From: an uncultured virus (IMG/VR IMGVR_UViG_3300032321_001739)
Lineage: Duplodnaviria > Heunggongvirae > Uroviricota > Caudoviricetes
Reading direction: 5' to 3' (one strand)
Length of the DNA: 53,890 bases
IMG/VR virus record: IMGVR_UViG_3300032321_001739
A program made the position numbers and the translations under genes. Under the pieces are notes generated by a model, which did not search any database, was not told the DNA's origin, and was given only the letters and a program-made list of their open reading frames with translations. This document shows, piece by piece, positions 379-42,826 of this stretch (positions are counted from its first letter, which is position 1; each line of letters opens with the position of its first letter).

Positions 379-707
379 AAATAATTTGTGATGATACTAC
401 CTCTAAAGAGATAGTAGATATATTCTTTCACTTTGATGAAAATAGAGAAAGGTATATCAGAATTGATTGGATTCATCTAACCAAAGGAACTTCTTCTAGA
501 AGAGAAAAACCGGGTGATCCTCTGAAGCAAGTGATTGTTGATTGTATTCAAGTAAGAGGTAAATCACATTTAGGTTATGATGGAGACTCTACAAATGGCA
601 CTCGTTATGTATATGAAGGTGATGCACTTTTCAAAGAGTTAAATAATTGGATGATTAATCATCAAACAATTAAAAGAGATATTAAGTTAAAAGAATTGGG
701 ACTATGA
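375..707 (+). CDS. Hypothetical protein, C-terminal tag (RDIKLKELGL)
   Basis: ORF track; ATGA-coupled to neighbours. Confidence 0.75.
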   Translation: MKIICDDTTSKEIVDIFFHFDENRERYIRIDWIHLTKGTSSRREKPGDPLKQVIVDCIQVRGKSHLGYDGDSTNGTRYVYEGDALFKELNNWMINHQTIKRDIKLKELGL

Positions 708-997
708 AATTGAAATATAAAAGAGGAGATTCCTGTCATATAAAAAAGGCTAGTAAGTTTGTAGAAGGTTCAATAGTCAAGTTGGATATGCCATATCATG
801 GAAGTTCATGCTATAAAGAAGGAGATATCAGATACTTTGTTACTGAAAAGAAAACTATAACAATAAGCGCAAAAGAACTCTTATTAGGTAAGTATGATAA
901 AAATGATATAACACAAACTTATTCAGAGAGCGATCTTATATCGTGGGAAAGAGAATGGAAAATAAATCAATTATATGAGAAAGATACACTTATCTAA
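704..997 (+). CDS. Hypothetical SH3/KOW-like protein, C-terminal tag (REWKINQL)
   Basis: KYKRGDSCHI start resembles small phage beta-barrel ORFs; operon-coupled. Confidence 0.65.
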   Translation: MKLKYKRGDSCHIKKASKFVEGSIVKLDMPYHGSSCYKEGDIRYFVTEKKTITISAKELLLGKYDKNDITQTYSESDLISWEREWKINQLYEKDTLI

Positions 998-1217
998 GTT
1001 TCCAGAAAGACCACATGTGCTTAAAGCCAGTTTAATGTTTGTTGAAGATAATAAGATATGTGATGGATGTGATGAAAGATCAAAATGTGCTTCTATACGA
1101 ACATTGGGTGATGGAGTTTCAATACTTTGTCAAGATTGCATTGAAGGTATTTTAGAGAGTTTAGATCCATCAGCAGTAAGAGATATTAAATTAAATAAAT
1201 TATTAAATGAATTATAA
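975..1217 (+). CDS. Small zinc-finger protein (CDGC...CQDC), C-terminal tag (RDIKLNKLL)
   Basis: Two CxxC pairs. Confidence 0.7.
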   Translation: MRKIHLSKFPERPHVLKASLMFVEDNKICDGCDERSKCASIRTLGDGVSILCQDCIEGILESLDPSAVRDIKLNKLLNEL

Positions 1218-1557
1218 AGAAATTGTTAGTAAGACAAAAGACAAATTTCAATCAATGTCTTTTATACCCGGAGATACGTTCTCTGAAATGTTATCTTTTT
1301 GGATTGTTGTTATTTCTAATCAGAATGGAATGATTAAAACACTAGAAGGAAATTCCGGTGGGCTAAAATTGGTTACTTACCAATCACCAGAAGAATTTAA
1401 ATCTAAGTGTCAATATAAACACAGTGATGGGTATTGGATTGAATTTATGTCAAACAACACACAAAAGAAATCCGACTTTATTGAATACTATTTTGAACAA
1501 GAGAAAATGAAAGTTGATGAAATTAGAGATTTTAAGTTAAATGACTTAGGAATATAA
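1207..1557 (+). CDS. Hypothetical protein, C-terminal tag (RDFKLNDLGI)
   Basis: ORF track. Confidence 0.75.
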   Translation: MNYKEIVSKTKDKFQSMSFIPGDTFSEMLSFWIVVISNQNGMIKTLEGNSGGLKLVTYQSPEEFKSKCQYKHSDGYWIEFMSNNTQKKSDFIEYYFEQEKMKVDEIRDFKLNDLGI

Positions 1558-2905: not shown

Positions 2906-4404
2906 TATCTATTTATCCTGAACTGTTGAATGTTGAAGAATCCACCCCAATCACCACCCCAACCTGATGTTCCACAATTATCTGTAGAAGAACCAGCTGG
3001 TGTTAATTGTTTGTAGTCTGATATATTATCTAATGTATAAAGAACATATTCATATCCTCCAGCATAATCAGTTTCATCACCGATAATACCAACAATCCAA
3101 GTTGAATCTGGAAGTAAATAATCACCATCTCTATAGTAAGCATATACAGTATCTGGAGCAGTAACTGATTCAGGGACTACTATTTGTGGGTTAGCGCCAG
3201 TAAACTCACTTTGAGTTATGAAAAGACCCCAACTAATTCCACCAATTCCGTAATAAAGAAATTGAGTATTGGAATGTGAAGCTCCTCCTGGCACACCGAA
3301 TGGTGCTACATATGATATAGGTAAAAGTGTTCTTTCTCCTGATCCAAAAGCTTCAAATAAGATACTTGTAATAGTAGGACAAGGTTGAGGTTCTGGAATT
3401 GTTGTGGCAAAAGCTTCCATATTAACTGACTGTTTAGATAAATTTAAAACATCTGTTATTAAAACTTTATAAGTTGTATCATGTTCTAAGGATTCGGAAA
3501 ACTCTGTCAGGTTTATAGAAAATCCTTTTTTAGTCTCGGATGAAATATTTCCTATGCGAATATATTCAGGTTCAGATGGGTTAAGAAGTGGGGATCCCAC
3601 AACAGAAGTAACAATTGCTTGAGCGCCACTTCCTCCGTTACCACCAAATAAATCAAGTCTATCACCAACTTCGTATCCACTACCACCAGCTAACGGATTT
3701 GTTATCACAGCTGTATTGGTCTCATTGACATATCCATATTGGTCTACTCCACCACTTTTAATAATACCACCCCATTCTGGAATTGTTACACTAGTAACAT
3801 GACCTTCAGGATCAGTTTCAACTTGACATATAACAGAATCATCGTTAGTTGAGACAACTTCTCCATTTGTATAATAATTACCACCTTCACCATTATACAA
3901 TTCTACGTCAAGTATGTATCCTTGAGGAAGTGCAATTATTAGAATTTCTCTAGGTTCTAAGCTATTTGTAAAAACTTCTTCAGTAAATGTTAACTTTATT
4001 TCTTCCAAGCTTATGATTTCTATAGTCATTGAATTTCCTTCAGGAAGTTCTCTTGGTTTAAATCCACCTTTTATTGAAGTTAACTGACTAGCAACAGTTG
4101 GTGCTCCATCAACAAGTGCTGGGTAAATTCTATGATTTAATGTTTCTACCTCGTTCATTAGGTCATATTTCACGCCCTCTGTAGGTCTTTTTGTAACTCT
4201 CATATACATAGCTTCATCAATTCTATCCCATACTAAATACATAAGTGTGGTATCATTTTTTGATCCAATGTATCCTTTCCAAATGATTACCGACCTATTT
4301 GCTTCATTTAAATCAAATGAATCAGTAGTTATTAAAAGGTCAAATTCACCGTCTCTTGGTGATTCCGGAAATCTAATTGATTCGTCTTTTGTGAATTGTG
4401 CCAT
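2905..4404 (-). CDS. Putative virion structural/fibre protein, paralogue of 5448..7382
   Basis: Gly-rich GGSGY-type repeats; N- and C-terminal blocks shared with 5448..7382. Confidence 0.6.
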   Translation of the reverse strand: MAQFTKDESIRFPESPRDGEFDLLITTDSFDLNEANRSVIIWKGYIGSKNDTTLMYLVWDRIDEAMYMRVTKRPTEGVKYDLMNEVETLNHRIYPALVDGAPTVASQLTSIKGGFKPRELPEGNSMTIEIISLEEIKLTFTEEVFTNSLEPREILIIALPQGYILDVELYNGEGGNYYTNGEVVSTNDDSVICQVETDPEGHVTSVTIPEWGGIIKSGGVDQYGYVNETNTAVITNPLAGGSGYEVGDRLDLFGGNGGSGAQAIVTSVVGSPLLNPSEPEYIRIGNISSETKKGFSINLTEFSESLEHDTTYKVLITDVLNLSKQSVNMEAFATTIPEPQPCPTITSILFEAFGSGERTLLPISYVAPFGVPGGASHSNTQFLYYGIGGISWGLFITQSEFTGANPQIVVPESVTAPDTVYAYYRDGDYLLPDSTWIVGIIGDETDYAGGYEYVLYTLDNISDYKQLTPAGSSTDNCGTSGWGGDWGGFFNIQQFRINR

Positions 4405-16975: not shown

Positions 16976-17800
16976 TTATTTTAATTTATCAATAGCTGAC
17001 TTCTTAATCTGACGGCATCTTTCTGGACCAACTCCTAATACTTCAGATATCTCAGATATACTCATTTCAGATTTACCACCTAATCCAAATGACATTTCAA
17101 TAACCATTCGTTCTTTAGTATTTAAACGAAGTAGTAAACTCATAATCTCTGATTTTAAAGAGTCTAACTGACACACCTCATCAGTTTGTGAATCTGAACT
17201 TATTGTATCTAATATAGTTATACTCTCCTCATCAAAAGAAACCGGAGTATCTAATGACCTAACATACTGAGAAGATTGTAAACTTAACTCTACTTTATCC
17301 AAATCTAATCCTAATTCGTTTGCCAATTCTAATGAAGTAGGAACTCGATTTAATGATTGCTCTAATTTAGATTGACATTCTCTTATCTTATTTAGGGAGT
17401 TTATTTGATTAAGTGGAAGTCTTATTGTTCTTGAGTTATCTGCCAATGATTGTAGTATTGATTGACGAATCCACCATACTGCATATGAAATAAATTTAAT
17501 ACCTTTAGTTGCGTCAAACTTCTCAGCGGCTTTGATAAGTCCGATGTTTCCTTCACTAACTAAGTCAGAGATATCTAAACCTCTACCTACATACTGCTTA
17601 GCAACTGAGACAACAAATCGTAGATTAGCTTCTACTAATTCGTTTTTAGCACGGAGACTTCCGTTTTTAATCTGATTAGCCAGTTCGACTTCTCTTTCGG
17701 GAGTAATCATTGATTTAGGGTTGATGTCTTTTAGATACTTATCAAAAGACTCGGAATCACGGTTAGTGATTGATTGGGTAATTTTCGTAGTGTTTCTCAT
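16976..17800 (-). CDS. rpoD: RNA polymerase sigma-70 factor, RpoD/SigA family, Bacteroidota type (no region 1.1)
   Basis: ANLRFVVSVAKQY, DLVSEGNIGLIKAAEKFD, KFISYAVWWIRQSILQ, RTIRLPLN, region 4 HTH ERCRQI; N-terminus KITQSITNR. Confidence 0.92.
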   Translation of the reverse strand: MRNTTKITQSITNRDSESFDKYLKDINPKSMITPEREVELANQIKNGSLRAKNELVEANLRFVVSVAKQYVGRGLDISDLVSEGNIGLIKAAEKFDATKGIKFISYAVWWIRQSILQSLADNSRTIRLPLNQINSLNKIRECQSKLEQSLNRVPTSLELANELGLDLDKVELSLQSSQYVRSLDTPVSFDEESITILDTISSDSQTDEVCQLDSLKSEIMSLLLRLNTKERMVIEMSFGLGGKSEMSISEISEVLGVGPERCRQIKKSAIDKLK

Positions 17801-20221: not shown

Positions 20222-20527
20222 ATGTTTAAATTAAAAGCAAAGTTTATTGGTAAAAACTCATTAGGTTTTATCAATGGTAGAATCTATGAAATGATTTTAA
20301 TCAGTATGCCACATATTGGTAAAGGAATGATAGAGATAGCAACTGAGAATCATAAACCTAAGTTAAGATGCGAATATGGTTCTTGGGAAAAATTTATTCT
20401 TAATTGGGAAATTCTACATTATGATAATATGAATAATGTTCGCGACGCGGAAGTCCATCACACTAAAGTGAATATGGGGTTGAAAGTGGCAGTAAGAGAT
20501 AATAAAATTAATTCAATATTGAAATGA
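20222..20527 (+). CDS. Hypothetical protein, C-terminal tag (RDNKINSIL)
   Basis: ORF track. Confidence 0.7.
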   Translation: MFKLKAKFIGKNSLGFINGRIYEMILISMPHIGKGMIEIATENHKPKLRCEYGSWEKFILNWEILHYDNMNNVRDAEVHHTKVNMGLKVAVRDNKINSILK

Positions 20528-20781
20528 AGTTTAATATAGGAGACCATTTACAGGAGATTGATTCTGTAAATGGTTATGTAGTAGAATCTTTTAGGGATGA
20601 GAGTCCGTCAGCTGACGGATGTGCCGGAGCGCAGCGGAGACCTAGTACAAAAAGTAGTACGAATTGGTATCTATTAGAAAATGATGAATTAGGTTTAGTG
20701 AATCATTGGGTACCTGAGAGTAAGTTAGAACTACATAAACAACCTTTAAGAGATAAGAAACTAAATGAACTTGGAATATGA
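20524..20781 (+). CDS. Hypothetical SH3-like protein, C-terminal tag (RDKKLNELGI), with GC-rich palindromic insert
   Basis: MKFNIGD start. Confidence 0.7.
   Translation: MKFNIGDHLQEIDSVNGYVVESFRDESPSADGCAGAQRRPSTKSSTNWYLLENDELGLVNHWVPESKLELHKQPLRDKKLNELGI
20604..20642. repeat. GC-rich REP-like element with a perfect 16-bp palindrome TCCGTCAGCTGACGGA
   Basis: Palindrome at 20604-20619 followed by tgtgccggagcgcagcggagacc. Confidence 0.55.
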
Positions 20782-20847
20782 ATTGGTGTAAATTATTTGG
20801 ACACAAGTGGAATCATTATGTAAAAACAAATATAATGGCAGAAACAT

Positions 20848-21177
20848 ATGACAATTGAAGAGATTTTAATAGCTTGTCCTGGCTTAGAAAAAGTTACATT
20901 TAATCACTATAAGGATTTCTTAGGTGATGATTTTGACCCAAACAAAACTTGGATTGAAATGGGATTTGATGATTTAGATATTGTCGAACTAATAATGCAT
21001 CTTGAAAAGAAGTTAGACTTTGAGTTTCCAGATTATTTAGTAGATAAAGTATTCGGAATCGATTTAAGTAACAACAGGATTAACGGAAGTTTCAATGGTG
21101 AAACACATCATAATATGAAACCTATCAACTTTATAGAACACATAAGAGAACAGAAGTTAAATGATTTGGGTATATGA
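20848..21177 (+). CDS. Acyl-carrier-protein-like protein lacking the phosphopantetheine Ser, C-terminal tag (REQKLNDLGI)
   Basis: EMGFDDLDIVELIMHLEKKLDFEFPD versus ACP [26 protein letters not shown]. Confidence 0.75.
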   Translation: MTIEEILIACPGLEKVTFNHYKDFLGDDFDPNKTWIEMGFDDLDIVELIMHLEKKLDFEFPDYLVDKVFGIDLSNNRINGSFNGETHHNMKPINFIEHIREQKLNDLGI

Positions 21178-21214
21178 GAAATGAAATACGTTTTTTTGTA
21201 ATATATACTCTACT

Positions 21215-21382
21215 CTTACACTACCAAAAGTAGACTGTAAGGCCTTGTGTCAAGACAAGGAAATGTGTCGATTAAGACTTGACTTAACTTAATTGTTTCG
21301 CCCCAGGCACTGAGCGAACAGGGTTTAAACCCACCTCTCTGTAAAGAGCTGGTCCAGTTGTGGGTAAATCAGTGCCTTTTTT
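21215..21382 (+). ncRNA. Putative structured non-coding RNA of unknown class
   Basis: GC-enriched intergenic segment with at least five stems and two loop-mediated pairings; TAATATATA at 21199-21207; T-run at the 3' end. Confidence 0.6.
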
Positions 21383-21389
21383 AATAACT

Positions 21390-21656
21390 ATGATTATATT
21401 TAATACTATAAAGAAAGCCGAGCACTATGTCAAATTCTGTAATAAGAACTATGACTACTATCATGATGGTTATGATTGGTCTGAGCAAAAGACTTTTATA
21501 GAAGAGGATTTAGTTAAACTAAGAAGTGCAGGTGATGGATGTGGTTGTGGATGTGATAACTATTTATATAATCATACAACTATAATAGGTAGAATCAAAA
21601 AGTTTGATGCTAAGTCTATAAGAGGGCATAAGATAAATGACTTAGGTCTAAAATAA
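21390..21656 (+). CDS. Hypothetical protein (GCGCGC), C-terminal tag (RGHKINDLGL)
   Basis: ATG 21390 preferred over GTG 21360, which lies in the putative RNA. Confidence 0.7.
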   Translation: MIIFNTIKKAEHYVKFCNKNYDYYHDGYDWSEQKTFIEEDLVKLRSAGDGCGCGCDNYLYNHTTIIGRIKKFDAKSIRGHKINDLGLK

Positions 21657-22114: not shown

Positions 22115-22504
22115 TTATTTATTCTTTAAATTTCCCAGTTTCTTATAAAGACATACAATCTCATCAATAGTAAGGTTGTTTTTCTTTCCATTAATGTCTG
22201 TTGTGCAAGCCACAACGTTTCCTATAACATAACCCTTATCATTGTCTACTCTATCGAATGATCTAGCATTAGGACCATCCTCTGTGAATTGAACATTAGT
22301 ATAAAAACAAGTGCTGTATTCAAGTAGCTTTTTAACATATTCAAAAGTTAAGTCAAAATCTAAGTTCCTACTTTGAGCAGATGAATGTATATTAACTAAT
22401 TTTTTAGCAACTTCGATATCTGGTATTTGAGGTCTCAATTCTTTCTTAACTTCTAATACCACAACAGTATCGGTATCTTCAATCATTTCTTTCTTTTTTC
22501 TCAT
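22115..22504 (-). CDS. His-Me-finger-like protein resembling T4 Srd / HNH-like phage proteins
   Basis: AQSRNLDFDLTF...CFYT...SFDRVDNDKGYVIGNVV...N..K; TATATTTG on minus strand at 22527-22534. Confidence 0.65.
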   Translation of the reverse strand: MRKKKEMIEDTDTVVVLEVKKELRPQIPDIEVAKKLVNIHSSAQSRNLDFDLTFEYVKKLLEYSTCFYTNVQFTEDGPNARSFDRVDNDKGYVIGNVVACTTDINGKKNNLTIDEIVCLYKKLGNLKNK

Positions 22505-27773: not shown

Positions 27774-27986
27774 ATGAAATTGTTTTGTCGTTTATTTGGT
27801 CATCGTTTTTCTTATTATGTAAAGAAGCAACCACTTAGTATTGGATTCATTACAAGAGATTTTAGAAAGTGTTCGAGGTGTTTATATCATCAAAAGTTAT
27901 TAAATGATACTGGTCAGTGGATTGAGTTAAGAAAGGGTTTAGATGAGATTAGGGAAGAAAAGTTAAAGAAGTTAGGGATTCATTAA
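27774..27986 (+). CDS. DUF1660-like small Zn-binding protein, C-terminal tag (REEKLKKLGI)
   Basis: CRLFGH...CSRC. Confidence 0.7.
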   Translation: MKLFCRLFGHRFSYYVKKQPLSIGFITRDFRKCSRCLYHQKLLNDTGQWIELRKGLDEIREEKLKKLGIH

Positions 27987-28178
27987 TTGAGACCTTATTA
28001 TTTTAGAGTTATTATAAGTAACAAAGTTTATTTTATCTACTAATTGAGGTTTTCCTCCATCGTTTATAATAACCAGTTTATCATTATCAGAGAATTTGCA
28101 TAAGTATATTTTATTGAGTGAAATATTGTTAACTTTCCCTTCTATTGTGAATGTAGAGATACAGATTAGTTTTGTCAT
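27972..28178 (-). CDS. Hypothetical protein
   Basis: ORF track; in operon. Confidence 0.55.
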   Translation of the reverse strand: MTKLICISTFTIEGKVNNISLNKIYLCKFSDNDKLVIINDGGKPQLVDKINFVTYNNSKIIRSQLMNP

Positions 28179-28180
28179 AG

Positions 28181-28369
28181 TTACCAGATTTTATACCATT
28201 TCTTTTTGATTAGTTTGTTTAGTTTTTTATCTCTTAGAGCTTCTAACGAATAATATCTATTATAACAATCATTACATATTAGAATTGGTATCTCACCGTT
28301 TACTGGGTCGAATGCTTGACTTTCAATTAGTTTACCGCATTTATTACAACCGCCTGTTATACTTACCAT
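28181..28369 (-). CDS. Zn-finger microprotein, tag RDKKLNKLI plus KKKWYKIW tail
   Basis: CNKC...CNDC. Confidence 0.7.
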   Translation of the reverse strand: MVSITGGCNKCGKLIESQAFDPVNGEIPILICNDCYNRYYSLEALRDKKLNKLIKKKWYKIW

Positions 28370-28563
28370 AGTTTATACCATTTCTTTTTAATGACTTTAT
28401 CTAGAACTAAATCTCTTTTATCTGCTTTCATCTTTTCTGGAGAGTAGTTAACCCAATAACATTTCTTACATACTATATAACCTTCGGGTGTTTTATTATC
28501 TAAAGGTATGGGATTAGGTAAGATAACATCTTTATTACATAGTTTACAATAAGTCAACATCAT
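28363..28563 (-). CDS. Zn-finger microprotein, tag RDLVLDKVI plus KKKWYKLW tail
   Basis: CKLC...CKKC; paralogue of 28181..28369. Confidence 0.7.
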   Translation of the reverse strand: MMLTYCKLCNKDVILPNPIPLDNKTPEGYIVCKKCYWVNYSPEKMKADKRDLVLDKVIKKKWYKLW

Positions 28564-28981
28564 TTGAAAGTATATCGTTTATTTTATTATCTCTTAGAAA
28601 TGATTTAAAGGCTTTTTTAAAGTCTTCTTGGTTAGTTATTGTTGATAGTATCATATTTTTAACTTCTTCTTTTCCCAGTTGGTATACTAAGTCGCTATAT
28701 TGAGAGTAAAGGTTATTAATATTAATTTTGGTTTTTCCATATTCGAATACGATTGAGTCTTTGGTTTGGTGTATAGTGATATGGTTATAAAGAAATGATA
28801 GTTCTAGCATTTTATCGAGTTGTTCTTTAGTAAGTTTATCGTTCATTTTTCCACTAATAATTGATTCAATGGAATCTTTGATAAATAAGTCTGTATCGTC
28901 TAGTGTCATAATATTAGTTTTTTTGTATGAGTTGGGTGATGGTATATCTGAATAGTGGCACCAATCATCTAGGTTTTCCAT
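28544..28981 (-). CDS. Hypothetical protein, C-terminal tag (RDNKINDIL)
   Basis: ORF track. Confidence 0.65.
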   Translation of the reverse strand: MENLDDWCHYSDIPSPNSYKKTNIMTLDDTDLFIKDSIESIISGKMNDKLTKEQLDKMLELSFLYNHITIHQTKDSIVFEYGKTKININNLYSQYSDLVYQLGKEEVKNMILSTITNQEDFKKAFKSFLRDNKINDILSNDVDLL

Positions 28982-35188: not shown

Positions 35189-37849
35189 TTAATTGATAAT
35201 AGATGTATACCATTTTCTAATTGATTCTAACTCAACACCTTTTCTTTTTGACATATCTTCTAACTGTTCTTCTGATATCTTACCTAATCCAAAGTATTTA
35301 GAATCCGGATGTGAAAAATACCAACCACTGACCGATGATTGTGGATACATTGCTAAACTTTCTGTTAGTTCTATACCAATAGAGTTCTTAACATCTAATA
35401 AATCAAATATAGTTAATTTCTCTAAGTGGTCAGGACAAGCCGGGTATCCAGGAGCTGGTCTAATACCTTTATACTTTTCAGATATCAATTCTTCATTTGT
35501 GTAGATTTCATCTTCTTCATAACCCCACCATTTACTTCTTACTTCTTTATGTAACCATTCGGCAGAGGCTTCGGCTAATCTATCAGCAAGTGCTTTTAAC
35601 ATAATAGATGAGTAATCATCAAATTCTTTTTCGAATCTTAAAAGGTGTTCTTCTATTCCAATTCCTGATGTAACGGCAAAACATCCGATATAATCTTTAA
35701 CTCCTTTAGGTGAGATAAAATCAGAAAGAGAAATGTTAGGTTGACCTTCAGTCTTTTTAGTTTGTTGTCTTAAAGTTCTTTGATAAGCTATAACTTCATT
35801 TTCATCTTTAATAGAATAAATTTCTATATCATCTCCTATAGAGTTTGCGGGAAAGATTCCAAATACACCACGTGCTTGAATCCATCTTTCTTTAATAATC
35901 TTATCTAACATAATCTGAGCATCATTGAATAAACCAGTAGCTTCAACTCCAACAACTTCATCAGTTAAGATATTTGGAAACTTACCATGTAATTCCCAAG
36001 TTCTAAAGAAAGGTGTCCAATCGATATATTGTTTTAACTCACTTAAATCAATATTATCTAATACTCTTATTCCAGTAAGATTAGGAGTAGATATTTTTTT
36101 TTGATTAAACTCTAATACAAGTTTATTTTTTCTAGCTTCTTCTAATGTAAGTAATTGTTTAGTATTTTTAGAATTAAGATAATGTTGATTGATACGAGAA
36201 TACTCTTCTTTTAAGTTAGTAATGAAATCTTTTTTCTTGTATCCAAGTAAACTTTCAGCAACTGTAACAGAACGAGAAGCATCTAAAACGTGTATAACAT
36301 TACCTGACTTGTAATAAGGTTCTATCTTAACTGCTGTATGAACTTTAGATGTAGTTGCTCCTCCTATGAGAAGTGGAATCTTAAGACCTCTTCTTTCCAT
36401 TTCTTTTGCTATGTGAACCATTTCATCAAGTGATGGGGTAATTAAACCACTAAGTCCGATGATATCACATCCTTCTGAAATTGCAGTTTCGATTATTTTT
36501 TCTGAACTAACCATAACACCTAAATCAATAATATCATAATTGTTACATCCTAATACAACACCTACAATGTTTTTTCCAATATCATGTACGTCTCCTTTAA
36601 CGGTTGCAAGAAGTATTTTACCATTTGCTTTTCTAATTGATGTTTTATCTAACTCAATAAAAGGTTGTAAGTAAGCAACTGCTTTTTTCATAACACGAGC
36701 TGACTTAACTACTTGTGGTAAAAACATTTGACCAGATCCAAATAAGTCACCTACTTTATTCATACCAACCATTAAAGGTCCTTCGATAACTTCAATTGGT
36801 TTACTAAATCTTTTTCTACATTCTTCAACGTCTTCATCGATAAAGTCAGTGATTCCTTTTACTAAAGAGTAAGATAATCTTTCTTCAACGTCTAATCGTC
36901 TCCACTCTAACTCAACTTCTCTTTTTTTAACATCACCTTTAACAGATTCACTAAACTCTAATAATCTTTCTGTAGCATCTGGTCTTCTATTAAGAATAAC
37001 ATCTTCAACTCGTTCCAATAATTCTTTATCAATATTAGAATAAACTTCAAGCATTTGTGGGTTAACTATACCCATATTCATACCATGTTTAATCGCATGG
37101 TATAAAAATGATGAGTGCATTGCTTCTCTTACTTTATTATTTCCTCTAAAAGAAAAAGAAACATTACTAACACCACCACTAACATGTGCTCCTAAAAGAT
37201 TATTAGTTATCCATTCAGTTGCCATAAAGAAGTCAATAGCGTTATTATTATGTTCTTCCATACCAGTGGCTACTGGAAAGATATTAGAATCAAAGATAAT
37301 GTCTTGTGGGTTAAAAAAAACTTTATTAACTAAGATATCATAAGAACGTTTGCAAATATCGATTCTTCTTTGGTAAGTATCTGCTTGACCTTTTTCATCA
37401 AAGGCCATCACAATGGTAGCAAATCCATATCGTTTAATCTTTTTAGCTTGTTTGATAAATACTTCTTCACCTTCTTTTAATGAAATAGAATTAACAATAC
37501 CTTTGCCCTGAACACATTTAAGTCCGGCTTCAATTATTTCCCACTTAGATGAATCAATCATAATAGGAACTTTTGAGATATCTGGCTCAGATGCAATTAA
37601 GTTTAAGAAACGAGTCATAGCTTCTACACCATCAATAAGACCTTCATCCATATTGATATCAATGATTTGAGCTCCACCTTCTACTTGGTCTTTTGCTACT
37701 TTAAGAGCAGATTCATAATCTCCTTCTTTAATAAGTTTAAGAAATTGTCGAGACCCGGTAACATTGGTTCTTTCACCAACGTTTACAAAGTTACTTAATT
37801 CTGTAATAACAAGAGGTTCTAATCCTGATAGTTTTAATACACGATTCAT
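35189..37849 (-). CDS. metH: Cobalamin-dependent methionine synthase, C-terminal part (pterin-binding, B12-binding and AdoMet activation domains)
   Basis: [38 protein letters not shown] (DxHxxG), [20 protein letters not shown]. Confidence 0.96.
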
Positions 37850-38814
37850 TTTTGATTATATTTTTCTACTAATTCTGAAATTGCTTTAATATGATTAGGT
37901 GATGTTCCACAACACCCACCTATGATATTTACCAGATTTAAATCTAAGAACTCTTTAATTTCTTCAGCCATCATTTCAGGGGATTCATCATACTGTCCGA
38001 ATTGATTTGGAAGACCAGCATTTGGATGACAACTTGTAAAGAATTCAGTTTTTTCTTTAAGTGTTTGTAAGTAAGGTCTCATTAACTTAGCTCCTAAAGC
38101 ACAGTTTAACCCTACACTTAAAAGTGGCATATGAGATACCGAAATAAGAAAAGCTTCTACTGTTTGACCTGTTAAGGTTCTTCCACTTAAATCGGTGATA
38201 GTTCCAGATACCATTATAGGAAGATTCACTTCTAACTCTTCATAAACCTCATCTATTGCATAAAGAGCTGCTTTACAGTTTAAGGTATCAAATACGGTTT
38301 CTACTAAAAGAATATCACACCCTCCTTTAATAAGTGGAATTATTTGTTCTTTATATGAAGTAACTAGTTTATCAAAAGTAATTGCTCTGAATCCTGGATC
38401 GTTAACATCTGGAGATATTGAACAAGTTCTATTAGTTGGACCAATTGATCCTGCTACCCATCTTTTTTTATCGTTGAATTCATCACAAACTTCTTTAGCT
38501 ATTTTAGCTCCAAAGTAATTGAGATTCCAAACTTGGTCTTCTAAGTCATAATCAGCTTGTGATATTGAAGTTGAAGAAAATGTATTTGTTTCAATGATAT
38601 CTGCTCCTGCTAATAAGTAATCACGATGTATTGATTTAATAACATCGGGTCTAGTTAATGTAAGTAAGTCGTTATTTCCTTTAAGACTTTTTTGATGTGA
38701 CTCAAAGTAACCTCTGCGAAAGTCTTCTTCTTCTAACTTCCATTTTTGTATTTGGGTTCCCATTGCTCCATCGAGAACCAATATTTTATTTTTAAGTTGA
38801 TTGAATAGTGTCAT
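37846..38814 (-). CDS. metH: Methionine synthase N-terminal homocysteine S-methyltransferase domain (split metH)
   Basis: [39 protein letters not shown] (Zn ligands); 4-nt overlap with the downstream part. Confidence 0.95.
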
Positions 38815-38907: not shown

Positions 38908-39123
38908 TCAAATTTGTTCTCTTCTATCATTTAGTAATTGTTCTAATTGTTTATCTCTTAATTGTGAAACTTCTCTTTTATAGTAGAAAAGAATTATAGA
39001 TTCTGGATGCATATCTGTTTGTAAAACATAGTCTTGTATATTTTGTCTTGTTATTTCGAGTTTGATACCATCATAGTAGATATCTTCTTGGTCATATTTA
39101 ACTAAATCTCTGTTGAATTTCAT
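38908..39123 (-). CDS. Hypothetical protein, C-terminal tag (RDKQLEQLL)
   Basis: ORF track. Confidence 0.65.
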   Translation of the reverse strand: MKFNRDLVKYDQEDIYYDGIKLEITRQNIQDYVLQTDMHPESIILFYYKREVSQLRDKQLEQLLNDRREQI

Positions 39124-39521: not shown

Positions 39522-41165
39522 TTAAAGTCTGTCAACTAATTTCTCAACGATTTCAATACCTCTAATGATTCTATCATAATAATCATCAACTCTCCAAGTT
39601 CCAACAAGATAAGAATAGGATCTTCTCCAGTCATCGTATGTTAAATAATCAATAAAATTAGATAAGTTATCTAAAGAGTAAACGCTATTATTGAAGAAAC
39701 TCGATAAGCTTATCATTTTTTGACGAGCTATCTCTAAGTCTTCAATTGTTTCGAATTGACCAGACATTAATTTATTGTAGAATTTAAAACTAATTCTTTC
39801 TAAACCTTCAACAATTGGTAAGTATCTATCAGATTGATCTTCTTTTACTAAATTCTTTTTAATTTCTGTTATATTTCTTGATATTTTTGTTGTCACATCA
39901 GATGATTTTGAGTAAATATTTTTAATACGCTCATTGATTGATTTGATATAGTGTTGTTTATCTTCTTCACTACTCATCATCATATTATAATATAGTTCTG
40001 AAATTGCTGAGAAATTATTTTGGTATCTTGCTTGAGATTCTAATACAAATAAAGCCCATCTACCGCCTAATCCTCTGTTAACAAGATTTTTGATATTTGA
40101 AATATCCCCAGTAATATCGGCTTTGTTTGCTATTAAAGCAATATATCTTTGAATATTTTGAGTTCTAACTTTATCATCAGTCATAACTAATTTACTTCCT
40201 GATTTTAATTCTTCTCTTTCATCTCTAATATCTGAAGCTCTTGTGTAATCACCAGATTTCAATTTAGATATATCCAATACTAAAGCAAAGTGAGCATCTT
40301 TTATCTCATTTTGGACATTACCTGATTCACTTACACTTAATCTTGAATTTAGTGATACATTCCAAGTATAAGGATCTACTGATGGTGCTTCTTCTTCTTT
40401 ATCTTCTTTTGGTTTTAATGTTTTTATAATGTGAAAATCACCACCTGATATGTTCCAAGAATATCTTCCATGTGTTCTCCAATCTCTACCACTTGGTGTT
40501 CCGCCATCATATTTGCTTTGGATAGAAAATACATCTCTACCCTCAATATATATAGTTGCTATCTCACCTGAATCTGATCTTTTTGCTTTAAAAAAAACTT
40601 TAGATAAATGTGGAATTTCTCTTAGTCTACCAACTCCACTTGAAGTTGATTCAATAGTATCTACTACATCATATTCTGAAAGTATTTTAGAGTCTATTTT
40701 ATGATATGTTTCTCTAATTTTACCATCAACTCCTGTATTAGTTACAAATTTACCATCAGAAGTAAACCAGAATTTAATTATTTTAAGTTCAGGTCTTTGA
40801 GGTTCGTTTCCTGTTCCACCACATCTACTACAATCAACAATTCTTTGTCGAGAACCCCACATTCTTTTTATTTTACCACTCTGACAAACTTCACCATCAA
40901 GCCCAGATGAACCAAATAAATTTTTTGAAGTTGCTTTACACGGTTCAGTTTTTTCTTCTAATTTAACGTTAAGTGCTTTTTTAAATGATAGGTATTGAAA
41001 CATATCATCAGAAAAGTTTGACATAGGAAAGTCATATTGTCTGGATATAGATTCTAATTTTTGAATAAAACCTCTTCTAGATTCTTGGTTAATATATCCT
41101 AATATTTTTGTTAACTTAATTGATTCAAATGCTTCAAATAGTTTTATATACTTTAACTGTCTCAT
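39522..41165 (-). CDS. Hypothetical protein with leader MRQLKYIKLFEAFES and a DnaJ-like Zn motif
   Basis: C...CQSGK...CSRCGGTG. Confidence 0.75.
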   Translation of the reverse strand: MRQLKYIKLFEAFESIKLTKILGYINQESRRGFIQKLESISRQYDFPMSNFSDDMFQYLSFKKALNVKLEEKTEPCKATSKNLFGSSGLDGEVCQSGKIKRMWGSRQRIVDCSRCGGTGNEPQRPELKIIKFWFTSDGKFVTNTGVDGKIRETYHKIDSKILSEYDVVDTIESTSSGVGRLREIPHLSKVFFKAKRSDSGEIATIYIEGRDVFSIQSKYDGGTPSGRDWRTHGRYSWNISGGDFHIIKTLKPKEDKEEEAPSVDPYTWNVSLNSRLSVSESGNVQNEIKDAHFALVLDISKLKSGDYTRASDIRDEREELKSGSKLVMTDDKVRTQNIQRYIALIANKADITGDISNIKNLVNRGLGGRWALFVLESQARYQNNFSAISELYYNMMMSSEEDKQHYIKSINERIKNIYSKSSDVTTKISRNITEIKKNLVKEDQSDRYLPIVEGLERISFKFYNKLMSGQFETIEDLEIARQKMISLSSFFNNSVYSLDNLSNFIDYLTYDDWRRSYSYLVGTWRVDDYYDRIIRGIEIVEKLVDRL

Positions 41166-42826
41166 ATTTGTGGTCCAACTATTTCAACTTTTATTCCGTT
41201 TCTTCTTAACTCGGATATATAATCCTTTGTTTGACTATCAACTATTAAATCCCCTGAGATTAATAGCTTTTTGATTTTAAGATTTGTGAAAGCATCTTTC
41301 ATATCAATTAATGAGTCTAAAGTATATAGTATCTGTAACTCTTCAAGCTCTGTGAATTTCGAAAGGTGTAAATCACCAGTCATATCACAACTCAATATTT
41401 GTAGTTTTTTAATATTTGGATTTACTGAAAGCATCTCATCAAAAATAACAGTATCAAATTTACATTTATCAAACGCAATTGAATCTGTTTTAACATTTTT
41501 AAAACCAGAAAGAGTTTTGATTTTAAGTGATTTGAATTTAACCCATTCTAATTCTAAAGGAATCTCAGTAAGGTTATTAGGAATATCTGTAGTTTCAATC
41601 ACAAGTTGTTTGATTTTAGCTTTTGGTGATATTTTTGTTTTAGACCAATCATAAACACTACTTAAGTATAAAGAAGTTGTGTTTTTACCAATAAATCTAG
41701 CCGTATCTAATCTCATTCTATCCATATATGGAGAAGATATTGAGTCATCTTGGTCAACATCTGGTGTGAATAAATATCTTGAACTAGATTCTGTTACGTT
41801 CATAACGTTTTCAGAATATTTTTCAACTAACTCATCGAAAACATCTTTCATTCTGTCTGGATAAGCTCTATCAAAGAATATTTTAGTCTGTTCAGTGTCA
41901 CTAAAAGATTCAATATTTCTAATCATCATTCTTGAAAGAGGTAATTTATCAGAAATTTTTTCATCATTCCAAGTGATTGGCGTATCAAATACAAAAAATG
42001 CTGGTATAGAGTTAGGATCGAATACGTTTCCTAAAAGTTGTGTTCTGTATCCACCAGTATAAAGATGTTGACAAGAACTAAAAAACTTAGAGATAGACAT
42101 ATTCAATATATCTTTTGGATTATGGTCAATTTGAAGATACATGTCTTTTCCAAAGATTGAGTATTCATATCCATAATCTCTATTATGGTTTTCTTTAGCT
42201 AAGTTTCTTAACTGGGAAATACTTCTTGATGAGAAAGAAGATGTTTCTACTTTTTCATCTGGATAACATCTATTATAATCATCAACGAATGTGTTAATGT
42301 TTACTAAGTTATTTGTGAAAATAGGATCACCTTCATTCTTTTTAATTCTAATCATATTACCACCTTCGTCTCTAACTGGAACTCCATTTTTATCTTTTTG
42401 GATCATTTCAGATGCTTTTGTTGGATTGATATCTAATTTTCTAAATACACTTTCAAAGATATAAACGATTTGGTCAATTGTAGGTGATTGAATATTAAAA
42501 TTATCCATTACCACTTTTGCTTCTTTACTAAGTAAATCTAAATTAATTGATTCTTGAACAATGTGATTAAACTTATCAGGTAAGCCTGCAAATGAATTCA
42601 TAATCAATCCCATATCACAATCAAAAAAAGATGAAAGAACTTTAATTTTATCTTCATCTTCTAATTTCCATCTACCCTGTTTGATTTTATCAGTTGGGTC
42701 TATTTCTTCATAATCTAAAAATTTCTCACCCCACTCGTTGGCTAATTGCTTTGCTTGACGAGGAAGGATTACGTCTCTGATTTTGGCTTCATTAAGCCAT
42801 TGATTTCTTGTTTTGATCCATTTCAT
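41162..42826 (-). CDS. Hypothetical protein with leader MKWIKTRNQWLNEA, SSCQ...R...DRAY domain and LRR-like C-terminus
   Basis: TAATATATA on minus strand at 42831-42839; LKKL.I-type repeats. Confidence 0.75.
   Translation of the reverse strand: MKWIKTRNQWLNEAKIRDVILPRQAKQLANEWGEKFLDYEEIDPTDKIKQGRWKLEDEDKIKVLSSFFDCDMGLIMNSFAGLPDKFNHIVQESINLDLLSKEAKVVMDNFNIQSPTIDQIVYIFESVFRKLDINPTKASEMIQKDKNGVPVRDEGGNMIRIKKNEGDPIFTNNLVNINTFVDDYNRCYPDEKVETSSFSSRSISQLRNLAKENHNRDYGYEYSIFGKDMYLQIDHNPKDILNMSISKFFSSCQHLYTGGYRTQLLGNVFDPNSIPAFFVFDTPITWNDEKISDKLPLSRMMIRNIESFSDTEQTKIFFDRAYPDRMKDVFDELVEKYSENVMNVTESSSRYLFTPDVDQDDSISSPYMDRMRLDTARFIGKNTTSLYLSSVYDWSKTKISPKAKIKQLVIETTDIPNNLTEIPLELEWVKFKSLKIKTLSGFKNVKTDSIAFDKCKFDTVIFDEMLSVNPNIKKLQILSCDMTGDLHLSKFTELEELQILYTLDSLIDMKDAFTNLKIKKLLISGDLIVDSQTKDYISELRRNGIKVEIVGPQI

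What the first reader, a model, noticed from the sequence alone, without database searches (positions are those of the whole stretch)
21199..21382. Candidate novel structured ncRNA with kissing loop, pseudoknot and self-complementary 12-mer
After TAATATATA (21199-21207): hairpin 1 CTTACA-CTAC/GTAG-TGTAAG (21215-21241); hairpin 2 CCTTGT/ACAAGG with loop GTCAAG (21243-21260); hairpin 3 CGATTAAG/CTTAATTG (21269-21295), whose loop contains CTTGAC (21278-21283), the exact complement of loop 2. Stem TTCGC/GCGAA (21297-21318) encloses AGGCACTGA (21305-21313), which is perfectly complementary to TCAGTGCCT (21369-21377); this is a pseudoknot or an alternative fold. There is also an ACCCAC/GTGGGT stem (21329-21365) with internal hairpins, a palindrome GGGTTTAAACCC (21321-21332) that could mediate dimerisation, and a final T-run. 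I could not match it to tRNA, tmRNA, hammerhead, twister, pistol or common riboswitches. It sits inside the C-tagged gene run.
Basis: partly seen in the sequence, partly recalled or inferred. Interest (0 to 1): 0.8.

Follow-up and report, generated by a model that had tools for sequence, protein, structure and literature searches.

The report
New knotted phage RNA with partner
A 170-base stretch in a giant bacterial virus encodes an intricately folded RNA that matches no catalogued family and is found beside the same small cysteine-rich protein in two unrelated virus groups, which suggests an undescribed RNA-protein pair whose job is still untested.

Summary
Real, and not in Rfam.

Homologue searches gave 37 distinct versions in megaphage-type and other contigs, plus divergent versions in 125-131 kb phages, one of which has a crAss-like layout. 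Four elements covary strongly: hairpins P2 and P3, the P2-P3 kissing helix and the 3' pseudoknot helix. A tree gives 70 co-changes against a null of 19 +/- 4. The palindrome and the ACCCAC/GTGGGT stem are not conserved, so dimerisation is unsupported.

The RNA lies upstream in 64 of 65 informative loci and downstream in one, while the other neighbours change freely. It often has its own promoter-like motif and ends in a U-run.

Best reading (0.45): a promoter-RNA-(leaky stop)-gene cassette whose RNA binds its own protein, laid out like type III toxin-antitoxin or AbiF loci but a member of neither. A ligand-sensing leader is the main rival (0.25). Expression, binding and function were not tested.

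The parts
21199..21207 (+). Phage promoter-like motif TAATATATA; inferred start of the RNA about 21212
   Evidence: 31 matches to T[AT]ATATATA in the window; by my count of the output 14 have an ATG 4-5 nt downstream and 12 at 17-26 nt. This copy has none within 55 nt and precedes the RNA. Promoter role inferred.
21214..21382 (+). Whole structured RNA (about 170 nt)
   Evidence: Model R2 hit 21213-21383, 113 bits (the window is in the training set); covariation
21215..21241 (+). P1, 5' hairpin; sequence, length and presence vary among homologues
   Evidence: (re-sequenced but still a hairpin in L199); not counted for covariation
21243..21260 (+). P2 hairpin; loop 21249-21254 is the 5' strand of the kissing helix
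   Evidence: 5 of 6 pairs with two-sided changes, 88% of cells paired
21269..21295 (+). P3 hairpin; 21278-21283 in its loop is the 3' strand of the kissing helix
   Evidence: P3 3 of 5 and kissing 6 of 6 pairs with two-sided changes; at least 5 Watson-Crick pairs in 19 of 22 cognate loop combinations against 70 of 442 non-cognate
21298..21317 (+). S1 of the pseudoknot, TCGC (21298-21301) with GCGA (21314-21317), preceded by conserved TGTT
   Evidence: 100% paired, one compensatory change (L250). Distant members have TCAC/GTGA, GCGC/GCGC or TTCC/GGAA (the last read by eye)
21305..21377 (+). S2 of the pseudoknot, 21305-21313 with 21369-21377, preceded by an RAA linker at 21366-21368
   Evidence: 6-9 uninterrupted pairs in 50 of 50 loci; 6 of 8 pairs with two-sided changes, 98.7% paired
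21318..21365 (+). Variable insert (18-68 nt in the family) closed by a 2-bp stem P6; contains the non-conserved palindrome 21321-21332
   Evidence: P6 pairs in 56 of 62 cells; the inner structure is not resolved by column counts
21377..21382 (+). U-run directly after S2; candidate 3' end or leaky terminator
   Evidence: TTTTT right after S2 in 35 of 37 versions, against 15 of 65 window ORFs with TTTTT anywhere in the 34 nt before their start. Not called by the terminator scan; weak or absent in several distant members
21390..21656 (+). Partner gene, 88 aa: beta-alpha-beta-sheet core with FNT..KAEH, CGCGC (residues 51-55) and GRIK, plus the megaphage C-terminal helical tail
   Evidence: 215 homologues; invariant residues; AlphaFold2 pLDDT 84; only a sub-threshold DUF7574 match

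Best explanation
A two-part phage cassette: promoter, a compact RNA of about 130-190 nt, a U-rich leaky stop, and the gene for a small Cys-rich protein. SHOWN by comparison: the RNA folds into hairpins P2 and P3 locked by a 5-7 bp loop-loop helix, followed directly by an H-type pseudoknot (S1 4 bp, S2 5-9 bp, an AA linker, a tolerant insert), and it moves between genomic sites and phage lineages together with this one gene. INFERRED: most transcripts end at the U-run, so free RNA outnumbers read-through mRNA. The protein recognises the folded RNA by shape and by the few conserved bases (UGUU, the S1/S2 junction, AA), forming a small RNA-protein particle and probably damping its own synthesis. 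The CGCGC loop probably binds a metal. What the particle or the freed protein does to the host is unknown; an antitoxin-like or counter-defence role is my leading guess.
For: Gene-first searches. The RNA is upstream in 11 of 11 viral loci (one of them helped build the model). It is upstream in 38 of 42 metagenome loci; the other four are three contigs cut at the gene start and one weak spurious match. It is upstream in 15 of 16 loci of a distant protein subfamily and downstream in the sixteenth (five further short matches set aside). RNA-first search: 6 of 6 hits carry the gene. Whole-record searches give one strong copy each in G001, G002, W01, G004 and G005, and neither RNA nor gene in W02 and W03. 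Neighbours on both sides vary; in L246 and L253 the upstream gene is divergent and the downstream gene convergent, so the unit stands alone. A TAnnTTTG motif (recalled as the Bacteroidota housekeeping -7 element) lies 82-90 nt before the core in 8 of 35 versions, some closely related, against 100 of 1042 background 115-nt windows. In L292 the RNA lies 3' of the gene, which a pure leader would not do. The layout matches RCd22-abiF, where the RNA binds its protein and acts in cis and in trans (PMC12373285, abstract and section 7).
Against: No binding, expression or phenotype data. The protein core is about neutral in the megaphage group (mean net charge +0.4) and basic only in the distant set (+4.6), and it has no match to an RNA-binding fold (best Z 5.0). 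The window is a recombinant: protein 93% but RNA 49% identical to L231, RNA 73% but protein 61% identical to L214, so strict cognate specificity is unlikely. L292 is a single case, and a 15-codon ORF resembling the family's N-terminus starts about 20 nt after that RNA, so it may be a decayed duplicate. The U-run is weak or absent in L285, L286 and L280. All upstream positions fit a cis-leader equally well.
Confidence: 0.45

Rival explanations
1. Cis-acting ligand sensor (riboswitch-like leader). A metal ion or metabolite stabilises the kissing and pseudoknot fold and sets read-through at the U-run or access to the start codon of the Cys-rich gene; the protein does not bind the RNA.
For: 5' position in 64 of 65 informative loci, 9-34 nt from the ATG in the 50 loci parsed; a loop-loop plus pseudoknot architecture is typical of aptamers (established knowledge); a U-run abuts S2; the partner has a putative metal-binding CGCGC.
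Against: Few bases stay invariant across both clades; S1 itself changes to TCAC, GCGC or TTCC. I saw no conserved competing helix, though I did not search for one systematically. A downstream copy exists in L292. The gene was not found in 185,579 cellular genomes, whereas riboswitch classes are mostly cellular (established knowledge).
Confidence: 0.25
2. Constitutive structural leader: a nuclease-resistant or ribosome-recruiting fold that protects or boosts the mRNA of this gene, working like viral exonuclease-resistant RNAs or intergenic IRES elements.
For: Structure is conserved far more than sequence; the long-range contact to the P3 loop is kept even where P2 is lost (L219 type, read by eye); the distance to the start codon is short and bounded.
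Against: Such an element should be reusable before other genes, yet it occurs once per genome and only with this gene.
Confidence: 0.12
3. Self-cleaving or processing ribozyme of an undescribed class that defines the 5' end of the mRNA or releases the RNA.
For: Compact double-knotted fold; the linker before S2 often reads CGAAU, like J4/2 of HDV ribozymes (recalled); in L278, L279, L281 and L293 the RNA begins right after a tRNA-like 3' end.
Against: The base at that position varies (C, U, G or A). The HDV P3/L3/P1.1 core is missing, since only 4 nt lie between the S2 5' strand and P6. There is no ribozyme hit in Rfam. tRNA adjacency is confined to one subgroup.
Confidence: 0.08
4. Multimerising virion or packaging RNA (pRNA-like), as hinted by the first reader.
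For: The complementary loops could pair between molecules instead of within one; covariation cannot tell these apart.
Against: The palindrome is exact in only 2 of 37 versions; neighbours vary and I saw no packaging gene among them (not annotated systematically); there is no Rfam match.
Confidence: 0.04

Closest known systems
Type III toxin-antitoxin loci (toxIN, cptIN, tenpIN)
   Same: Promoter, pseudoknot RNA, U-rich stop, then one protein gene; adenines placed to contact stem 1 (PMC12283969, passages).
   Different: One copy and no tandem repeats; no separate terminator hairpin; an extra kissing domain; a 72-88 aa protein against a core of about 150 residues, with no ToxN-like match.
RCd22-AbiF of a C. 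difficile prophage (abiF motif, Rfam RF03085)
   Same: Phage-borne ncRNA upstream of a single gene, short RNA in excess with read-through, RNA binds its protein (PMC12373285, abstract and section 7). This is the layout I infer here.
   Different: No RF03085 hit; no Abi_2 or HEPN-type domain; different fold.
Autoregulatory phage leaders (T4 gene 32 pseudoknot; Aca-bound 5' UTR motifs)
   Same: Structured 5' RNA linked to the gene of the protein that may bind it (PMC10690425 passage on gp32; PMC13551039 abstract).
   Different: Larger RNA with two tertiary contacts and a variable insert; the protein is not an SSB, HTH or RHH by any search here; one downstream copy.
HDV-like (including theta) ribozymes
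   Same: Pseudoknot closed by a 3' strand after a short RAA linker and a variable P4-like insert (recalled).
   Different: No P3/L3/P1.1; the would-be catalytic C is not conserved; an extra 5' kissing domain.
DUF7574 (PF24459)
   Same: Weak match over residues 19-65; 44 of 99 family members match at E <= 0.1.
   Different: The window protein scores 18.8 bits against a cut-off of 27; no paper in the library names it.

Membership tests
Any Rfam 15 family | Score at or above the family's gathering threshold | tested here: not met
   0 hits in the window; only sub-threshold noise at E <= 10; none on the RNA in 10 homologue loci or in L231 and L281
Type III toxin-antitoxin | Tandem repeats of the antitoxin RNA | tested here: not met
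   No repeat in the RNA; one model hit per genome. PMC12283969 notes that repeats are often hard to detect in viral tenpIN loci
Type III toxin-antitoxin | H-type pseudoknot with adenines facing stem 1 | tested here: met
   S1/S2 covariation and the conserved AA linker; A-minor contact inferred
Type III toxin-antitoxin | Rho-independent terminator between RNA and gene | tested here: inconclusive
   U-run in 35 of 37 versions, but its stem is the pseudoknot helix and the scan did not call it
Type III toxin-antitoxin | ToxN/CptN/TenpN-like endoribonuclease | tested here: inconclusive
   No Pfam or PADLOC match; not listed in fold searches; the protein is about half the length
Type III toxin-antitoxin | Protein toxic, neutralised by direct RNA binding | not testable with these tools
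   Needs expression and binding assays
RCd22-AbiF | abiF motif RF03085 and an Abi_2 protein | tested here: not met
HDV-like ribozyme | Nested P3/L3/P1.1 and an invariant catalytic C | tested here: not met
   The parse of 50 loci shows 4 nt between the S2 5' strand and the insert, and C, U, G or A before the RAA linker; HDV features recalled
Riboswitch (any class) | Ligand-dependent structural change controlling the downstream gene | not testable with these tools
   The position fits; there are no ligand data
tRNA / tmRNA | Cloverleaf or tRNA-like domain | tested here: not met
   ARAGORN finds none in the window
DUF7574 | Score at or above 27 bits | tested here: not met
   18.8 bits for the window protein; best member E 1.7e-4

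The most novel reading that the evidence does not exclude
A new class of phage ribonucleoprotein: a doubly knotted RNA of about 150 nt and a small metal-binding protein of a fold with no solved relative act together, as an RNA-gated toxin or counter-defence effector or as a protein-assisted RNA catalyst, and have been passed between megaphages and crAss-like phages as one unit.
Probability: 0.35. Interest if true: 0.88.

Novelty: categorically new. Interest (0 to 1): 0.72.

Why it matters
Structured RNAs with two covarying long-range contacts are the usual source of new riboswitches, ribozymes and RNA-protein machines, and few are known from megaphages or crAss-like phages. This one comes with a ready-made test partner, a small protein with no known family, and with dozens of natural compensatory variants. 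Binding, ligand response, cleavage and toxicity can each be tested with one short RNA and one short protein. A protein-binding result would add a new RNA-protein module to phage biology. A ligand response would give a riboswitch class apparently confined to phages. 'Categorically new' refers to both parts matching no family in the libraries searched; the mechanism may yet prove to be of a known kind.

Tried and rejected
One search gave 12 loci, of which 1 was real. blastn of the RNA against 50,697 phage records gave nothing real, and DNA search of W01-W03 missed the W01 copy that the covariance model found. The upstream ACP-like gene found no relatives and is not linked to the RNA.

Protein searches were blank or uninformative: PHROGs, PADLOC, PDB sequences, ESM Atlas twice (52, 117), Foldseek PDB and VIA-align, best Z 5.0 (65). 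The weak rows for leviviral coat and Pur-alpha repeats (Z 3.4-3.8) are at noise level and were not used. The only viral-fold hit is an unnamed 69-aa protein, A0A516LFW1 (E 1.4e-4). The cellular-genome scan gave 6 short matches; I opened one (L272, an antisense frame) and did not open the other five, which span 12-14 residues. tmRNA hits in G001 are below the cut-off. The weak R2 hits in G002 and G003 (E 0.24-0.38) lie antisense to a coding gene and were rejected. My four-way-junction reading of the insert was not confirmed by column counts (44%, 26% and 75% paired). R2 misses L280, L285, L286 and L289; L285, L286, L289 and L290 rest on a descriptor built from the family and L280 on inspection. 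No expression data and no complex prediction were available for this window.

Full report
Setting. The window is 30% G+C and densely coding, with a sigma-70 factor, an Srd-like protein and an ACP-like protein. A marker gene at 41162-42826 has its only relatives in records of 634-642 kb and IMG/VR contigs of 313-483 kb, so the window is a fragment of a megaphage. PMC7162821 (passages) predicts Bacteroidetes hosts for genomes of this size class. I use that only as a size comparison and did not place these records on a tree. No whole genome is held for the window.

Observation. All 18 listed motifs are exact. The core is the second-highest G+C peak of its length and folds with z = -2.76 on the + strand. 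Rfam, tRNA and tmRNA scans are blank.

Finding homologues. DNA search of three related records gave one homologue, in G001, at 83% identity. It has three compensatory changes in P2 and one in the pseudoknot helix, the same downstream gene and a different upstream gene. Searching with that gene gave 11 viral loci, and a two-sequence covariance model found the RNA just upstream in 11 of 11 and in W01. The core is upstream in 38; three contigs are cut at the gene start and one match is spurious. A profile search found a distant subfamily of the protein. Of 21 loci fetched with it, five are short weak matches and were set aside; of the other 16, 15 have the RNA upstream and one, L292, downstream. 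Several loci are repeats of the same phage, so these counts are not independent; the first 50 reduce to 37 distinct RNAs. One distant carrier, G004 (130 kb), has a large terminase, portal and capsid gene followed by 1.3-2.0 kaa virion proteins, which I read as a crAss-like layout, unrelated to the megaphages. An RNA-first pattern gave 6 hits, all carrying the gene. No cultured phage among 50,697 records has the gene, and no convincing copy appeared among 185,579 species genomes.

Structure. The family fold is an optional P1, then P2 and P3 joined loop to loop, then UGUU, then an H-type pseudoknot with a variable insert in its long loop and an AA linker before the last strand. On 31 of the 37 distinct versions (the six left out have a rearranged or cut 5' domain), 91.9% of cells pair and 165 cells show two-sided changes against 49.7 shuffled. 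On a tree of the partner proteins there are 70 two-sided changes against a null of 19.4 +/- 3.8: 27 in S2, 12 in the kissing helix, 12 in P3, 10 in P6, 8 in P2 and 1 in S1. Cognate loops pair over at least 5 Watson-Crick positions in 19 of 22 combinations, non-cognate in 70 of 442; L217 and L253 have imperfect kisses. Distant members change S1 on both sides and keep a kiss of new sequence. In the L219 type P2 is lost, but an upstream strand still pairs with the P3 loop (by eye). A descriptor of the core, built from the family, hits 79 of 83 family loci and one other place in 1.19 Mb. Covariation cannot show that S1 and S2 form at the same time; loop lengths of 1-5 nt permit it. The palindrome and the ACCCAC/GTGGGT stem are not family features.

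Transcription signals. The motif at 21199 belongs to a class that usually sits 4-5 or 17-26 nt before start codons in this window, so it probably starts the RNA near 21212 (inferred). A TAnnTTTG motif sits 82-90 nt before the core in 8 of 35 versions. Seven versions have a divergent upstream gene within about 310 nt and so need their own promoter. A U-run follows S2 in 35 of 37 versions but is weak in the distant group.

The protein. It has 215 close homologues, none named beyond 'hypothetical'. F4, N5, T6, H12, D49, C51, G52, C53, G54, C55 and G67 are invariant in 99 sequences. The model is confident (pLDDT 84) but has no solved relative. The C-terminal helical tail occurs only in megaphage members and on 10 of 98 window ORFs by a loose pattern; earlier notes of this scan describe that tail as a separate feature.

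Mechanism. The fold and the linkage are shown. Own promoter, leaky stop, RNA excess, protein binding and metal binding are inferred. I put 0.45 on an RNA-protein pair, 0.25 on a ligand-sensing leader, 0.12 on a constitutive structural leader, 0.08 on a ribozyme and 0.04 on a multimerising virion RNA. The downstream copy in L292 favours partnership, but it may be left over from a duplication. The window itself joins an L214-type RNA to an L231-type gene, with the DNA match to L231 starting near 21367. RNA and protein alleles are therefore exchangeable within the group, which argues against strict cognate pairing. Over all pairs, RNA and protein identity correlate at 0.55.

Known systems and literature. 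It is laid out like type III toxin-antitoxin and RCd22-AbiF loci but fails or cannot meet their defining features (membership table). Seven library searches listed no paper that, by title and abstract start, describes it. Read in part: PMC7162821 (passages), PMC12283969 (passages), PMC12373285 (abstract, section 7), PMC13551039 and PMC10853763 (abstracts), PMC10690425 (passages; three supplementary files searched with six terms and no hit, two archives unreadable, one table not searched, three files too large). That last study predicted 10,006 unnamed viral candidates, most from IMG/VR intergenic regions, and may contain this RNA; I guess one chance in four. Subscription papers are not searched.

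Verdict. A real, strongly covarying RNA class absent from Rfam, bound by linkage to an uncharacterised small protein across two phage lineages. Interest 0.72.

Noticed in passing
window 20848-21177 (+): Acyl-carrier-protein-like gene (PF00550, E 8e-6; PHROG ACP). The position where the phosphopantetheine serine is expected (motif recalled) reads Asp, so it may be an unmodifiable ACP mimic.
   Followed up: no
window, 31 sites: T[AT]ATATATA motif with a start codon 4-5 nt downstream at 14 sites, which suggests leaderless transcripts, and 17-26 nt downstream at 12. Several precede genes that begin MK(H/Y)(I/L)K.
   Followed up: partly
window 704-1557, 20222-21656, 27774-28981, 38908-39123: Shared C-terminal helical tail (R-x-x-K-[IL]-x-x-L) on 10 of 98 ORFs by a loose pattern; already noted elsewhere in this scan.
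   Followed up: partly
L278, L279, L281, L293, about 2720-2860 (L279 about 1-140): A tRNA-like element with an intact acceptor stem and T-arm but a long insertion, not called by ARAGORN in the two of these loci scanned, L278 and L281, ends immediately 5' of the RNA.
   Followed up: no
L292 about 3325-3405: A long hairpin with a U-tail right after the downstream RNA copy, containing a 15-codon ORF that resembles the family's N-terminus.
   Followed up: partly
L219 2845-2917, L220 2844-2916: A tRNA with an odd anticodon loop about 110 nt after the partner gene.
   Followed up: no
window 22115-22504 (-), 16976-17800 (-): An Srd-like sigma decoy or HNH-type protein and a sigma-70 factor; not linked to the RNA in homologues.
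   Followed up: no
window 35189-38814 (-): Two adjacent ORFs that read like the two halves of cobalamin-dependent methionine synthase (recognised by eye, not searched).
   Followed up: no
window about 21367: Recombination join between an L214-type RNA and an L231-type gene.
   Followed up: yes
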